Shown: positions 1 through 64,000 of the stretch, one piece after another
Position numbering within the stretch: the first letter of the stretch is position 1
How the letters are laid out: every line of letters begins with the position of its first letter
DNA from: Eledone cirrhosa
Taxonomy: Eukaryota
Direction of reading: 5' to 3'
Length of the DNA stretch: 64,000 bases
NCBI GenBank assembly: GCA_964016885.1
Contig: OZ024766.1
Location: forward strand, 16,616,001 to 16,680,000
Notes under the pieces: model-generated
Told to the model about the DNA's origin: nothing
The model's database searches: none
The model's input: only the letters and a program-made list of their open reading frames with translations
Program-made: the position numbers and the translations under genes

Positions 1-423
1 GTAATGGAACTCTTAGTAGACACAATTGTAAAGTAAGAATAGATATGACAGTGTAAGACTGATGTCGGGGAATTAAAATTGTGTGTGTGTATATATATAT
101 ATATAATTGTTACACAAGATATAATTAGATAAATTAAAGTTATAATGAAGACAGCAGGTACTCGGTGTCTTAGCGAATATTTCGACTCTCGTACGGTGTC
201 AAACGTGAAAAGTCCCTGACATAATTTTGTACTTTCACTCACATTTCCAGTCGTATTTAATTTTATAGTGATGTGATTTATTAAAAAGAAACGTGATAAT
301 TGTTTCTACTTTAGGCACAAGGCCAGTAAATACCCCAGTACATTACTGGTACTTCATTTTATCGACCCCGTATGGATGAAAGGCAAAGCTTACCTCTGAG
401 GGATTAACTTTGCTTTTCATCCT

Positions 424-3400
424 TATCTCTATACATATAGAAAATGGACAGAGTGTGTACTTCACTGAAACCACTGCTCATCAGTTGACACCAGCACCAC
501 CTGACACTACTCTAACTGCTTTTTTGAAACACTGCCAGAATAAAGAATTTGTTCGATCCCTCCTATATGCTGACATCCCAAAATACTACACCTGGACCAA
601 TTGTAAGACTTGGAATCAAAGGAAGCAGGGTCATTTAGTGGAAGGTGATGAAGTCAAGGCAAGTGATGCTATTGGGCATGTTTACAATGACCACCCCAAC
701 AACAGAGAGAGTTTTTATTTACAGTCACATCTGCATATTGTTCAAGGACCAACGTCATTTGAGGATCTCAGGTGATTTGGTGGAAGAGTGCAGCAAATAA
801 CAAGAAGCATCTAAAGAACATCAGATTCTGCATGGCAATTGATATTGGAAGAAGAGACTAGAAGGAGTAGTCACTGGAGTAGCCAGTTAAATAAGACAGC
901 CATGGACACCTGTATGACAACTGACATTGGAAGAAGGGACTAGAAGGAGCAGTCACTGGAGTAGCCAGTTAAATAAGACAGCCATGGACTTCTGTATGAC
1001 AACTGAGATTGGAAGAAGAGACTAGAAGGAGCAGTCACTGGAGTAGCCAGTTAAATAAGACAACCATGGACTTCTGTATGACAACTGAGATTGGAAGAAG
1101 AGACTAGAAGGAGCAGTCACTGGAGTAGCGAGTTAAATAAGACAACCATGGACACCTGTATGACAACTGACATTGGAAGAAGGGACTAGAAGGAACAGTC
1201 ACTGGAGTAGCGAGTTAAATAAGACAGCCATGGACTCCTGTATGACAACTGACATTGGAAGAAGAGACTAGAAGGAGCAGTCACTGGAGTAGCCAGTTAA
1301 ATAAAACAGCCATGGACTCCTGTATGACAACTGACATTGGATGAAGGGACTATAAGGAGCAGTCACTGGAGTAGCCAGTTAAATAAGACAGCCATGGACT
1401 TCTGTATGACAACTGACATTGGCAGAAGTGACTAGAAGGAGCAGTCACTGGAGTAGCCACTTAAATAAGACAGTCATGGACACCTGTATGACAACTAACA
1501 TTCGAAGAAGGGACTAGAAGGAGCAGTCACTGGAGTAGCCAGCTAAATAAGACAGCCATGGACACCTGTATGACAACTGACATTGGAAGAAGGGACTAGA
1601 AGGAGCAGTCACTGGAATAGCCAGTTAAATAAGACAGCCATGGACTCCTGTATGACAACTGACATTGGAAAGAGAGACTAGAAGGAGCAGTCACTGGAGT
1701 AGCCAGTTAAATAAGACAGTCATGGACACCTGTATGACAACTAACATTGGAAGAAGGGACTAGAAGGAGCAGTCACTGGAGTAGCCAGTTAAATAAGACA
1801 GCCATGGACACCTGTATGACAACTAACATTGGAAGAAGGGACTAGAAGGAGCAGTCACTGGAGTAGCCAGTTAAATAAGACAGCCATGGACTTCTGTATG
1901 ACAACTGAGATTGGAAGAAGGGACTAGAAGGAGCAGTCACTGGAGTAGCCATTTAAATAAGACAGCCATGGACTCCTGTATGACAACTGACATTGGAAGA
2001 AGGGACTAGAAGGAGCAGTCACTGGAGTAGCTAGTTAAATAAGACAGCCATGGACTCCTGTAAGACAACTGACATTGGAAGAAGGGACTAGAAGGAGTAG
2101 TCACTGGAGTAGCCAGTTAAATAAGACAGTCATGGACACCTGTATGACAACTAACATTGGAAGAAGGGACTAGAAGGAGCAGTCACTGGAGTAGCCAGTT
2201 AAATAAGACAGCCATGGACTTCTGTATGACAACTGAGATTGGAAGAAGGGACTAGAAGGAGCAGTCACAGGAGTAGCCAGTTAAATAAGACAGTCATGGA
2301 CACCTGTATGACAACTAACATTGGAAGAAGGGACTAGAAGGAGCAGTCACTGGAGTAGCCAGTTAAATAAGACAGCCATGGACTCCTGTATGACAACTGA
2401 CATTGGATGAAGGGATTAGAAGGAGCAGTCACTGGAGTAGCCAGTTAAATAAGACAGCCATGGACACCTGTATGACAACTGACATTGGAAAAAGGGACTA
2501 GAAGGAGTAGTCACTGGAGTAGCCAGTTAAATAAGACAGCCATGGACTCCTGTATGACAACTGACATTGGAAGAAGGGACTAGAGGGAGCAGTCACTGGA
2601 GTGGCCAATTAAATAAGACAGCCATGGACACCTGTATGACAACTGACATTGGAAGAAGAGACTAGAAGGAGCAGTCACTGGAGTAGCCAGTTAAATAAGA
2701 CAGCCATGGACTCCTGTATGACAACTGACATTGGAAGAAGAGACTAGAAGGAGCAGTCACTGGAGGGGCCAGTTAAATAAGACAGCCATCGACACATGTA
2801 TGACAACTGACATTGGAAGAAGGGACTAGAGGGAGCAGTCACAGGAGTGGCCAATTAAATAAGACAGCCATGGACACCTGTATGACAACTGACATTGGAA
2901 GAAGGGACTAGAAGGAGCAGTCACTGGAGTAGCCAGTTAAATAAGACAGCCATGGACTCCTGTATGACAACTGACATTGGAATAAGAGACTAGAAGGAGC
3001 AGTCACTGGAGTGGCCAATTAAATAAGACAGCCATGGACACCTGTATGACAACTGACATTGGAAGAAGGGACTAGAAGGAGCAGTCAATGGGGTAGCCAG
3101 TTAAATAAGACAGCCATGGACACCTGTATGACAACTGACATTGGAAGAAGGGACTAGAAGGAGCAGTCACTGGAGCAGCCAGTTAAATAAGACAGTTGTT
3201 TGCTACTATCCTCACAGCATCTGGAATAAATCTCATCTACCCTGGCAGGAGTACAAAAACAATATATCAGACGACTATCTACATCTAGCCCAAAGATGTT
3301 ATAGCAATATTTATGTGGAATCTACATCCAGGATTTACAATCAACCTCTGTGCAACCTGTCCCATTGAATTCCAGCAATGAATAGCAATGCAGGATGCCA

Positions 3401-3430
3401 GAGCCAGAAGAAATTGAGGTAATACAATCA
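424..3430 (+). mobile_element. Degenerate Helitron Rep/helicase ORF fragment (unit 1), interrupted by the 82-bp array
   Basis: Translation IHIENGQSVYFTE..PPDTTLTAF..LLYADIPKYYTW..W..RKQG..DAIG.VY..HPNNRESFYL..LHIVQGPTSFEDLR, resuming after the array as IRQLFATILT..WQEYKNN.SDDYLH, resembles the region of Helitron RepHel proteins between the Rep motifs and the helicase. It contains stops and frameshifts. Confidence 0.85.
840..3195 (+). repeat. 82-bp minisatellite, about 28.7 copies
   Basis: Monomer TGACATTGGAAGAAGGGACTAGAAGGAGCAGTCACTGGAGTAGCCAGTTAAATAAGACAGCCATGGACTCCTGTATGACAAC; CATGG at 901 and 983 gives period 82. Confidence 0.97.
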
Positions 3431-3559
3431 GTTTTTCAGGAGACAAACCATGATATTGAAGTGTTGCGTAAGTTTGTGGATGAAAACAAACCTTGACTGG
3501 TGGATGACCAGAAATATGCCTACCACAAGATCTTGAAAAACATTCAACATGACAACACC

Positions 3560-3692
3560 CAGCACTCACTGTAAATGAGGTTGGCGTTAGGAAGGGCATC
3601 CATCTTTAGAAATCAAGCCACAATCAGTTCCCGTACCACCCTTGCAAGCAGGGAAAAAGCGGACGTGAAATGAAATGATGATGAATGATGAT
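3560..3692 (+). mobile_element. SINE 3' remnant with (TGA)n tail (present in every unit)
   Basis: GTTGGCGTTAGGAAGGGCATCC motif followed by ..GGACGTGAAATGAAATGATGATGAATGATGA, similar to cephalopod SINE tails as I recall them. Confidence 0.55.
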
Positions 3693-61877: not shown

Positions 61878-62033
61878 GTATTTATATATATATATCCAAA
61901 ATTAAGATAAATTAAAATAAAATTAATCTATATCAAATTATGGTTGTAATGCTTTCTGGCATGACACCCATAATTTGATATAGATTAATTTTATTTTAAT
62001 TTATTTTAATTTTGTATATATATATATAAATAC
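61878..62033. repeat. Long palindrome with ~74-bp central deletion, unit 7
   Basis: ATTATGGTTGTAATGC joins TTTCTGGCATGACACCC. Confidence 0.9.
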
Positions 62034-62333
62034 AGAGAAAGAGAAGAGTAGACAACAGACAATGACAAAGAAGAGGAATTAACCACCCCAGTATTTCACT
62101 GGTATTTCATTTATTGACCTCAAAATATCGAAGCAACTTTACCTCAGTGGGATTTGAACTCTGAGAACTAGAACAGACACTGAAAATATATCAAGATGTG
62201 CACACATGTATATAAGAACACATATAAACATACACATACATATACACACACATATATACACAAATAAAGATAATCATTTTCATGGACAGAAATTTCTACA
62301 CACTGACATATACACTCATACATATATATATAT

Positions 62334-62456
62334 ATAGGAAAATGTTTAACCCCGATGGCAGAGCTCAAGCCATTTCGACGGTTATGTCTGGACTGTTTCC
62401 AGAAATAGCCGTCGAAACGGATTGAGCTCTGCCGTCGGGGTTAAACATTTTCCTAT
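62334..62456. repeat. 123-bp hairpin, unit 7
   Basis: Same inverted repeat. Confidence 0.9.
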
Positions 62457-63338
62457 TACCCGCTCTACTACCCTAAGTATTGAGTACTCTGGTGCGTATA
62501 TGGTCCATCTGGTTCTTTACCACACCTCCTTTGTTATATATATATATATATAAAATTATAAGAAACGAAAGGAGCTGTGTGGTTACTGTAAACAAAGTTT
62601 AAGATGGTAATATGGATGAAAGGAGAAAATAAACCCTTCATCAGCTGTAAACCGAGATCATAGATGTTTTGGCACATATATATATATACAGTGTTTGTAA
62701 ATTCTGTAACATACAGATTTGTCAGCACAAGTCTTGGTTACAACTTCTACAAATAAAATGAAAGGAGAATAATTTCAGAACAAACAAGTTTTATTCAAGA
62801 CATTAACAACATTGGTGGCACTATTTTGGGTGAGTGATATGGTTTTTATCTTGTCTGATTGTGTTTCTGTTACATTAAGTAACCTTATGTTGGTACCACA
62901 ACATTTAGAAAATGATTTACCACAGACATCACAGTGATAAGGTTCCTCTCCTGTATATGTTAGTGTCTAGTGAAGTCACAACATTTAGAGAATGATTTAC
63001 TGCAGATATCACAGTGATATGGTTCCTTTTCTGTAAATGTTAGTGCTGAGTGAAGTGACTTATTTCAGAGAATGATTTCCCACAGATATCACAGTGATAT
63101 GGTTTCTCTCCTGTATATATATGTTTGTGTCTAGTTAAGCTAGCTTTTATAGATAACAATTTCCACAGATATCACAGTAATATGGCTTTTCTCCAGTATA
63201 TATTTATGTTTGTATGTAGTTAATGTAGCAATACAAGAGAATAATTTCTCCACAATATCAGTGGTATGGCTTCTCACTCATATGAATGTATTTGTGTCTA
63301 ATTAATTTACAATTTTGAGACAATGAGATATGACTTTG

Positions 63339-64000
63339 TTATGGTTTCTTACCTGTATGGGTATATTTGTGTTTAGTTAAATTACTTAATTGAGAGAATG
63401 ATTTACCACAGATATCACAGTGATGTGGCTTCTCACCTGTATGGATACGTAAGTGTTGAGTTAAGGGACTACTTTGAGAGAATGATTTACCACAGATATC
63501 ACAGCGATATGGCTTCTCCCCTGTATGGATACGTAAGTGCTCAGTTAAGTAACTTCTTCGAGAGAATGATTTACCACAGATATCACAGTGATATGGTTTG
63601 TCTCCTGTATGAGTACGTTTGTGTCTAGTTAAGGTACTACTATCAGAGAATGATTTACTACAGATATCACAGTGATATGGCTTGTCTCCTGTATGTATAC
63701 GTTTGTGGCTAGTTAAGGTACTACTATCAGAGAATGATTTACCACAGATATCACAGTGATATGGCTTCTCTCCTGTATGGGTACGTTTGTGGCTAGTTAA
63801 GTGACCACTTTGAGAGAATGATTTACCACAGATATCACAGTGATATGGCTTCTCACCTGTATGTATACTTTTGTGTCTAGTTAAATTACTATTAACAAAG
63901 AATGATTTACCACAGATATCACAGTGATATGGCTTCTCTCCTGAATGGGTACGTTTGTGGCTAGTTAAACTAATATTATTAAAGAATGATTTACCACAGA
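63339..64000 (-). CDS. C2H2 zinc-finger protein, 3' part (7 complete fingers + 1 partial; 5' end outside the window)
   Basis: Open frame with helices [56 protein letters not shown], then TGKKP*. Confidence 0.88.

What the first reader, a model, noticed from the sequence alone, without database searches (positions are those of the whole stretch)
1..64000. A ZNF-gene macrosatellite: each ~9-kb unit couples a variable finger array to a Helitron remnant, a VNTR and two hairpins
Seen: seven head-to-tail units with almost invariant flanks. Most length variation lies in two internal tandem arrays, the 84-bp fingers and the 82-bp Helitron-derived repeat. Established: coleoid cephalopods have large clustered C2H2-ZNF expansions, and Helitrons can capture genes and form tandem arrays by rolling-circle replication. 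Inference: this is a very young expansion that acts as a nested diversification cassette, producing new DNA-binding specificities per copy. It was amplified by unequal crossover or possibly Helitron-assisted replication. I could not identify Helitron termini, so the mechanism is open.
Basis: partly seen in the sequence, partly recalled or inferred. Interest (0 to 1): 0.78.

Follow-up and report, generated by a model that had tools for sequence, protein, structure and literature searches.

The report
Shuffling octopus zinc-finger gene array
The window is part of a 1.1-million-base run of about 97 near-identical zinc-finger gene units whose DNA-reading finger sets are reshuffled between copies, likely by unequal crossing-over; the Helitron piece is an endless, older fragment that was likely just carried along.

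Summary
The array is real and much larger than the window. It has 97 zinc-finger (ZNF) gene units over 1.09 Mb, in two convergent arms (54 and 43 units), with no copy of the gene-start marker elsewhere. Flanks are 97.4% identical (median), yet 94 readable genes give 74 proteins and 59 different finger 'fingerprint' arrays of 3-24 fingers.

The unit holds an internal ~0.85-kb piece of a dispersed 7-kb Helitron family, and neither terminus occurs in the region. The unit junction cuts the helicase frame mid-gene; only the outermost unit continues into the helicase. Both hairpins are pieces of dispersed repeats. The 82-bp VNTR arose here from Helitron coding DNA (about 270 kb).

Best model: one tandem duplication, then nested unequal exchange at finger, gene and multi-gene scales, plus an inversion. 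Frameshifts are depleted in the coding arrays. Positive selection on base-contact codons is only borderline, and finger swapping also occurs in non-coding fingers.

Found in passing: the gene's non-coding first exon has about 400 copies genome-wide and is 98% identical across ZNF clusters whose coding leaders share about 74%. It works like young mouse KRAB-ZNF or zebrafish FiNZ clusters but belongs to neither family.

The parts
1..64000 (.). 64 kb of the right arm of a 97-unit tandem ZNF gene array (G000:C27 15.757-16.843 Mb; 54 genes on +, 43 on -, convergent)
14037..22679 (.). One complete unit from junction to junction (8,643 bp); other junctions at about 3555, 31363, 40069, 49532, 60501
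6961..8400 (-). ZNF ORF, 479 aa, 16 fingers, ends just before the usual stop site
16953..17894 (-). ZNF ORF, 313 aa, 10 fingers; 35-aa leader with IKCE
25539..27236 (-). ZNF ORF, 565 aa, 18 intact fingers plus one that has lost a Cys; internal duplication of a six-finger block
34275..35552 (-). ZNF ORF, 425 aa, 14 fingers; internal duplication of a four-finger block
42979..44676 (-). ZNF ORF, 565 aa, 18 intact fingers; same fingerprint array as the ORF at 25539
53168..54787 (-). ZNF ORF, 539 aa, 18 fingers, frameshifted before its last fingers; a different finger set
63339..64000 (-). 3' part of the seventh ZNF ORF (341 aa, 11 fingers; start lies just beyond the window)
19979..20380 (-). Non-coding first exon (5' end approximate), shared at about 98% identity with ZNF clusters on other chromosomes; about 400 copies
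18277..19978 (-). GT-AG intron (1,702 bp) holding LINE-like remnants, a SINE-like element and the 115-bp VNTR
   Evidence: joint in run X4; sequence
19622..19844 (.). 115-bp VNTR; also found beside exon 1 in C18 relatives
20592..20822 (.). 77-bp VNTR made from a piece of the SINE-like element
20870..22679 (+). Internal Helitron RepHel remnant (about 0.85 kb with the VNTR collapsed), no termini, cut mid-frame at the junction
21296..22319 (+). 82-bp VNTR amplified from Helitron coding DNA; up to 38 kb per unit, about 270 kb in the array
22678..22806 (+). Dispersed retroelement-type 3' tail ending in (GAT)n, joined to the Helitron cut through a shared AG (the RTE label is recalled)
24069..24298 (.). 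Hairpin 1: the two inverted ends of a dispersed MITE-like element with its middle missing
24566..24624 (.). Hairpin 2: piece of a very common dispersed repeat (12,797 exact 23-mer hits)
25107..25538 (-). Degenerate, frameshifted fingers downstream of the stop codon

Best explanation
This is a young 97-unit tandem array of poly-C2H2 zinc-finger genes, likely built by one tandem duplication followed by repeated unequal crossing-over and an inverted duplication, with the Helitron, hairpins and VNTRs likely carried as passengers. Steps: (1) One member of a dispersed octopod ZNF family sat among transposon debris; the family members and the debris families are shown. (2) A ~9-kb segment was duplicated by a join between the inside of the Helitron helicase frame and a retroelement tail, through a shared AG; the junction is shown, the repair route is inferred. 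(3) The unit radiated into about 34-46 lineages, then blocks of several genes were duplicated again, and part of the array was copied in inverted orientation; the pattern is shown, the order is inferred. (4) Inside each gene, misaligned exchange between 84-bp fingers deletes, duplicates and swaps fingers, so arrays diverge far faster than flanks; this is shown, and it also happens in non-coding fingers. (5) Selection likely keeps most frames open and may favour new base-contact residues; the first has support, the second is borderline. The proteins are predicted to be sequence-specific DNA binders; their targets are untested.
For: 97 gene-start modules, and all 79 exact marker hits lie in 15.76-16.82 Mb of one contig. 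Three of four arm ends stop at the same junction coordinate and the fourth 128 bp further on. 58 of 59 readable junctions run from Helitron into the tail; the outermost left unit continues in frame into PIF1 sequence (Pfam E 3.7e-4, below the curated cut-off). Flanks are 97.4% identical (median, 89 of 97 units), the arms interleave in the tree, and co-linear blocks are offset by 15, 24 and 27 units at 99.4-100%. Identical fingerprint arrays: 28 of 42 pairs at 99.5% or more flank identity, 9 of 41 at 99-99.5%, 10 of 287 at 98-99%, 1 of 4,001 below 98%. Finger replacement is visible in the non-coding fingers of 7 of 75 units. About 12 frame-breaking events in coding arrays against about 43 expected from flank indels, p 6e-6 (events grouped by eye). 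75 of 94 ORFs reach the usual C-terminus. Short-read contigs of depth 357-738 match unit-specific DNA with 0-2 differences.
Against: No long reads or second individual were examined, so blocks at 99.7-100% could be both haplotypes assembled in a row and the count could be too high. Against the post-stop fingers, the frameshift deficit is not significant (p 0.06). New non-synonymous changes at framework residues accumulate at about the synonymous rate (omega 0.8-1.8), so constraint on recent copies is weak. The contact-codon excess (omega 2.5-3.4) falls to p 0.05-0.08 once codons that could be imported from degenerate fingers are removed. Expression of the array itself is only weakly indicated: alleles in run X4 show that its exon-1 contigs come mostly from relatives outside the array.
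Confidence: 0.8

Rival explanations
1. A Helitron captured the ZNF gene and rolling-circle replication laid down the head-to-tail units.
For: Every full unit carries Helitron RepHel DNA next to the junction, and an intact-looking family with a hairpin-CTAG 3' end exists in this genome.
Against: Neither terminus matches the 1.26-Mb region at E 1e-3. The junction lies inside the helicase frame, about 2.2 kb short of the element's 3' end. The remnant is 77-87% identical to dispersed copies while units are 96-100% alike. 13 of 14 dispersed Helitron loci have no finger motif and one has a single match. The gene-start marker has no hit off the array.
Confidence: 0.04
2. The array is a drifting macrosatellite: genes multiply and shuffle fingers through repeat instability alone, and most new specificities are selectively neutral. 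This is compatible with the best explanation's mechanics but denies adaptive diversification.
For: Finger swapping also occurs in non-coding fingers and alone produced a 2-fold 'contact-site' excess there. Framework residues evolve near neutrally. 19 of 94 ORFs end early, two units lack fingers and one lacks the ATG. The 82-bp VNTR expands up to 38 kb per unit.
Against: Frameshifts are about 3.5-fold rarer than in flanks. Zinc-ligand changes are depleted (omega 0-0.3). Contact omega stays at 2.5-3.4 in every test variant, while point changes in non-coding fingers show no such bias once the 7 swapped units are dropped (ratio 1.19, p 0.6).
Confidence: 0.3
3. The array is largely an assembly artefact: haplotypes or collapsed repeats were laid end to end.
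For: Several co-linear blocks are 99.7-100% identical, and no long reads were available.
Against: 34-46 lineages remain at 98.7-99% cut-offs, with different finger sets. There is no gap inside the array. Short-read contigs show high depth on unit-specific DNA, although those runs may be the assembly's own sample and depth is not a copy number. At most the newest block duplications are in doubt.
Confidence: 0.08

Closest known systems
Young mouse KRAB-ZNF clusters, e.g. Chr4 (PMC12575710, passages read)
   Same: Growth by segmental duplication of multi-gene blocks, dozens of distinct fingerprint arrays (38-47 there, 59 here), and transposons enriched as passengers of the duplications.
   Different: No KRAB match among the 25 best Pfam families shown (32 matched). 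Here all genes descend from one ~9-kb unit with one junction, are strictly head-to-tail in two arms, and the passenger is a Helitron fragment rather than ERVs.
Zebrafish FiNZ-ZNF genes (PMC10547256, passages read)
   Same: A large lineage-restricted ZNF family with a short N-terminal peptide and a shared first exon that one morpholino can target; positive selection at base-contact residues in some clades.
   Different: FiNZ is encoded on its own exon. Here the first exon is non-coding and the 33-35-aa leader is in the finger exon. A leader profile found no true relative among 1.84 billion representatives; similarity to FiNZ was not tested directly.
Coleoid C2H2 expansions and clusters (PMC9068888, PMC9795677, PMC12513265; passages read)
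   Same: Clustered, tandem-duplicated and partly octopus-specific C2H2 genes.
   Different: The passages read describe clusters and gene trees, not a homogeneous 97-unit array with a defined unit. In squid the C2H2 genes are said not to form related subclusters (PMC9068888), and the octopod expansion is dated to about 41 Ma (PMC9795677); this array looks much younger, though I did not date it.
Gene-bearing macrosatellites such as D4Z4/DUX4 (PMC3018141, PMC13558733 seen as search listings; detail recalled)
   Same: Multi-kb head-to-tail units that each carry a transcription-factor ORF.
   Different: Those units are homogeneous in their coding part (recalled); here the coding part is the fastest-changing part, and higher-order blocks and two arms exist.
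PRDM9 zinc-finger minisatellite (recalled)
   Same: 84-bp repeats reshuffled by unequal exchange, with variation concentrated at base-contact positions.
   Different: No SET or KRAB match among the Pfam families shown. Fingers within a gene are about 85% identical, and 34% of amino-acid diversity lies at positions -1, 3 and 6, lower than recalled for PRDM9. This is a multigene array rather than one allelic locus.
Helitron/Helentron-borne tandem repeats in bivalves (PMC7492417, PMC8268682; search listings only)
   Same: A tandem repeat associated with a Helitron.
   Different: Those are dispersed by the elements. The 82-bp repeat here comes from RepHel coding DNA, is single-copy in the dispersed Helitrons examined, and all 1,900 exact 24-mer hits lie in this array.

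Membership tests
Helitron-captured / rolling-circle tandem array | 3' hairpin + CTRR terminus at the unit end | tested here: not met
   The family's terminus was aligned in 12 of 14 dispersed loci; no match in the 1.26-Mb region
Helitron-captured / rolling-circle tandem array | 5' terminus at the unit start | tested here: not met
   Shared 5' start seen in 8 loci aligned; no match in the region
Helitron-captured / rolling-circle tandem array | Dispersed copies carrying the captured gene | tested here: not met
   79 of 79 exact marker hits in the array; no finger arrays in 14 Helitron loci. The exact pattern would miss diverged copies.
Helitron remnant (origin of the piece) | Homology to RepHel-encoding elements | tested here: met
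   DNA match to 14 of 14 loci; L130 encodes Helitron_like_N and PIF1 above cut-off
Gene-bearing macrosatellite / tandem gene array | Multi-kb head-to-tail units of high identity at one locus | tested here: met
   97 units, median spacing 9.8 kb, 96-100% flank identity
Gene-bearing macrosatellite / tandem gene array | Copy number varies between individuals | not testable with these tools
   Only one assembly; laid runs were contigs
Poly-C2H2 tandem ZNF genes | Five or more C2H2 fingers with TGEKP-type linkers in one ORF | tested here: met
   93 of 94 ORFs have 5 or more fingers; Pfam PF00096 and PF13465
KRAB-ZNF | KRAB domain | tested here: not met
   None among the 25 best of 32 Pfam families shown; the ORF has only a 35-aa leader and the upstream exon has no frame joining it
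FiNZ-ZNF | FiNZ peptide encoded on its own first exon | tested here: not met
   Exon 1 is non-coding and the leader lies in the finger exon; sequence similarity to FiNZ not tested
PRDM9-like | PR/SET domain | tested here: not met
   None among the Pfam families shown; no room for it in the ORF
Transposon-repressing ZNF families | Positive selection on base-contact residues | tested here: inconclusive
   omega 2.5-3.4; p 0.002 or lower in the loose test, 0.03-0.08 in strict tests
Transposon-repressing ZNF families | Binding and silencing of transposons | not testable with these tools
   No binding or knock-down data

The most novel reading that the evidence does not exclude
The array is the fastest-evolving node of an undescribed octopod ZNF family of about 400 genes, an invertebrate counterpart of KRAB- and FiNZ-ZNFs. 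The family shares an ultraconserved non-coding first exon that co-regulates all members, and a short leader whose invariant [IV]KCE motif would recruit SUMO-dependent silencing. Nested recombination in the array would supply new DNA-binding specificities that selection picks up against young transposons.
Probability: 0.25. Interest if true: 0.78.

Novelty: new variant of a known kind. Interest (0 to 1): 0.52.

Why it matters
What the thousands of cephalopod C2H2 genes do, and how they diversify, is an open question. This array shows the process at base resolution: one ancestral unit, a datable junction, and dozens of new finger arrays arising while flanks drift by under 3%. If the shared first exon holds up, it offers a single handle to perturb hundreds of octopod ZNF genes at once, as was done for zebrafish FiNZ genes. 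That would make the transposon-defence versus neural-regulation question testable. The mechanism itself (tandem duplication plus finger shuffling) is well known from mammals and fish.

Tried and rejected
Helitron termini at unit or array edges: none.

Hairpins as unit-specific signals: both belong to dispersed families (929 and 12,797 exact hits).

First selection estimate from a minimum spanning tree of fingers (pN/pS about 1.8): set aside because recombination inflates repeated changes. The non-coding control first showed a 2-fold contact excess, traced to finger replacement in 7 of 75 units.

Run X4's spliced joint as proof that the array is expressed: rejected, because X4 carries G at 20001 in all its depth while 82 of 92 array copies carry A. 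Only a 99-bp leader contig (depth 42, 2 differences; sampled relatives 74-79%) points to the array. No RNA holder was listed. Run X7 laid nothing.

Exon 1 as a coding exon or a known RNA: only a 13-codon upstream ORF, fold z = -1.36, and two Rfam matches far below threshold in an AC-rich stretch elsewhere in the unit.

Leader homologues: one word search gave generic ZNFs, one gave none, and the profile search gave one unrelated repeat protein.

A whole-region megablast for long identical blocks timed out; blocks were read from unit pairs instead.

Loci of related genes in other cephalopod genomes could not be fetched, so cross-species conservation of exon 1 and of the array is open. Earlier scan notes held nothing relevant. 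No structure or complex was predicted.
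Full report
OBSERVATION. Self-comparison and repeat finding show seven finger arrays (84-bp period) and seven 82-bp arrays, plus 115-bp and 77-bp VNTRs and two inverted repeats per unit. The ZNF ORFs lie on the minus strand. The window is G000:C27:16,616,001-16,680,000 in a 3.0-Gb genome. That it is an octopod is an inference: the closest named ZNF hit was an Octopus protein at 74% over half the query.

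EXTENT. A 26-mer from the gene start has 79 exact hits, all in C27 15.76-16.82 Mb. I fetched 15.70-16.96 Mb and mapped 20 unit modules. There are 97 gene-start modules, 54 with the gene on + and 43 on -, pointing towards a 5.4-kb spacer; the only N run lies outside the array. Unit spacing is 3.6-45 kb, median 9.8 kb, over 95 intervals. The 82-bp repeat carries 0.87 of the length variance and totals about 270 kb. Flank identity over six modules in 89 of 97 units has a median of 97.4% (minimum 96.2%). Left and right arms interleave in the tree, and the best cross-arm pair is 99.0%. Single-linkage gives 34 lineages at 98.7% and 46 at 99%. Co-linear blocks are offset by 15, 24 and 27 units at 99.4-100%.

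UNIT BOUNDARY AND HELITRON. The left outer end and both inner ends break at window-equivalent 22678/22679; the right outer end breaks at 22806. Inside the array the Helitron frame is cut and joined through a shared AG to a dispersed (GAT)n-tailed element; I recall such tails as RTE-type and did not test this. 58 of 59 junctions readable with an exact motif show this join. The outermost left unit instead runs on about 370 bp through helicase sequence (Pfam PIF1 E 3.7e-4, below cut-off). The in-unit tail resembles the tails at the array centre more than the one in the left flank, which favours a direct duplication junction over a deletion. That continuation finds dispersed copies at 86-87% on many chromosomes (best 40 scored). 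In 14 fetched loci the element is about 7 kb, its main bodies are about 88-96% alike, and it encodes Helitron_like_N and PIF1 (L130). It ends in a hairpin plus CTAG-type end in 12 loci aligned and shares a 5' start in 8 loci aligned. The unit holds only an internal piece at 77-86% identity, and neither terminus matches the 1.26-Mb region. The 82-bp seed is single-copy in those elements, and all 1,900 exact 24-mer hits in the genome lie in the array. So the remnant predates the array, and the VNTR arose in place.

HAIRPINS. Hairpin 1 is the two inverted ends of a dispersed element: 929 exact hits, and in 3 of 4 loci examined the ends are separated by a middle part. Hairpin 2 folds well (z = -4.5) but is part of a repeat with 12,797 exact hits.

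GENES. 94 of 97 modules gave an ORF from the ATG; two lack the finger exon and one has lost the ATG. They encode 74 distinct proteins with 3-24 fingers. There are 59 distinct fingerprint arrays, 147 fingerprints and 430 distinct finger sequences among 1,275, and 75 of 94 reach the usual C-terminus. The window's middle genes differ by whole-finger deletions and by four- or six-finger duplications. Array identity collapses with flank divergence: 28 of 42 pairs are identical at 99.5% or more, and 1 of 4,001 below 98%.

SELECTION, FOR AND AGAINST. About 12 frame-breaking events (grouped by eye) compare with 43 expected from 59 flank indels in 2,120 bp (p 6e-6); against post-stop fingers p is 0.06. 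Rare-codon analysis with a flank-derived mutation spectrum gave omega 2.5-3.4 at contact codons (p 0.002 or lower) and 0.8-0.9 at framework codons. Lineage-private new codons gave 3.1 and 2.8 (p 0.026, 0.048; 9 and 8 events). The non-coding control also showed a 2-fold contact excess. This came from finger replacement in 7 of 75 units and fell to 1.19 without them. Removing codons importable from degenerate fingers left omega 2.7-3.4 at p 0.05-0.08 against synonymous sites, and p 0.05-0.12 against synonymous plus framework. Shuffling is therefore mechanical; adaptive change is suggested, not shown.

READ DATA. No listed run is on record as RNA. Runs X1 and X2 have contigs of depth 357-738 matching unit-specific DNA with 0-2 differences, against 4-10 for diverged LINE contigs in X1. 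They may be the assembly's own sample, and depth is not a copy number. Run X4 has contigs joining 18276 to 19979 across a GT-AG intron (shorter side 26 letters). Its alleles point mainly to relatives outside the array.

THE WIDER FAMILY. The splice-acceptor 27-mer has 116 hits, including C8, C9 and C12; 12 of 14 such loci hold ORFs with three or more fingers, and none shows the Helitron piece. A 27-mer of exon 1 has 398 hits at up to one mismatch, many on C18. In 200 kb of C18 the exon-1 module recurs about 13 times, mostly upstream of ZNF exons in matching orientation. Against outside copies the array's exon 1 is 98% identical (n = 14-15). The promoter side is 86%, the exon-2 UTR 83%, and the coding leader 74% (n = 4 alignable). 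All 94 array leaders carry a psi-K-x-E motif in the first 20 residues, and KCET is invariant in the 11 leaders aligned; reading this as a SUMO site is recalled knowledge and untested. Exon 1 has no long ORF, no unusual fold and no Rfam match.

COMPARISON. The closest working model is the young mouse Chr4 KRAB-ZNF cluster: block duplications, many fingerprint arrays and passenger transposons (PMC12575710, passages). Zebrafish FiNZ-ZNFs give the precedent for a shared first exon and contact-site selection, and the same paper predicts that octopus ZNF motifs are enriched in transposons (PMC10547256, passages). Cephalopod C2H2 clusters are known (PMC9068888 passages; PMC9795677 passages; PMC12513265 first seventh of the text and passages). 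Seven searches of the open library listed no title or abstract on a homogeneous octopod ZNF unit array or a shared ultraconserved first exon. Subscription papers and supplements were not seen and may describe them.

VERDICT. The feature is real and larger than reported. The mechanism is ordinary in kind, the scale and homogeneity are unusual, and the Helitron is a passenger. New variant of a known kind; interest 0.52.

Noticed in passing
window 19979-20380 (-); G000:C18 4.9-8.1 Mb, C8 32-34 Mb, C9 16-18 Mb, C12 24-25 Mb, C5 12.5-13.1 Mb (L139-L172): The non-coding first exon is about 98% identical across ZNF clusters on different chromosomes while coding leaders are about 74% identical; 398 hits genome-wide. 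The cause is unexplained.
   Followed up: partly
window 17790-17894 (-) and relatives in L139-L167: A 33-35-aa leader with invariant KCET inside a psi-K-x-E motif; no true relative was found among protein representatives.
   Followed up: partly
L153-L172 (G000:C18:5,925,001-6,125,000): A second, older ZNF cluster of the same family with irregular spacing; its longest internal duplications are 85-97% identical.
   Followed up: partly
G000:C27:16,392,685-16,398,047 (L070): The spacer between the two arms holds a 78-bp tandem repeat of about 3 kb, and both sides begin with 49-bp repeats of the retroelement-type tail, consistent with a fold-back duplication of the array's downstream end.
   Followed up: partly
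G000:C27 16.04-16.12 Mb and 16.34-16.39 Mb: Three units carry 82-bp arrays of 25, 33 and 38 kb, so a coding-derived minisatellite has grown to satellite scale.
   Followed up: no
window 18150-18370 and 19640-20400 in runs X1 and X2: Single contigs on exon 1 have about 14 times the depth of unit-specific contigs, more than the roughly 4-fold expected from 398 against 97 copies. Collapsed clusters in the assembly or the library type could explain it.
   Followed up: no
L121-L134: A dispersed ~7-kb Helitron family with long RepHel frames (up to 557 codons) and a hairpin-CTAG end, often inserted at (TA)n.
   Followed up: partly
G000:C27 15,886,706, 16,188,426, 16,211,601, 16,223,990, 16,473,022, 16,533,295, 16,724,001: Units with large internal deletions: some lose exon 1 or the Helitron piece, and two lose the finger exon.
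   Followed up: no
window 55028-55261: A 117-bp local duplication in exon 2 of one unit.
   Followed up: no
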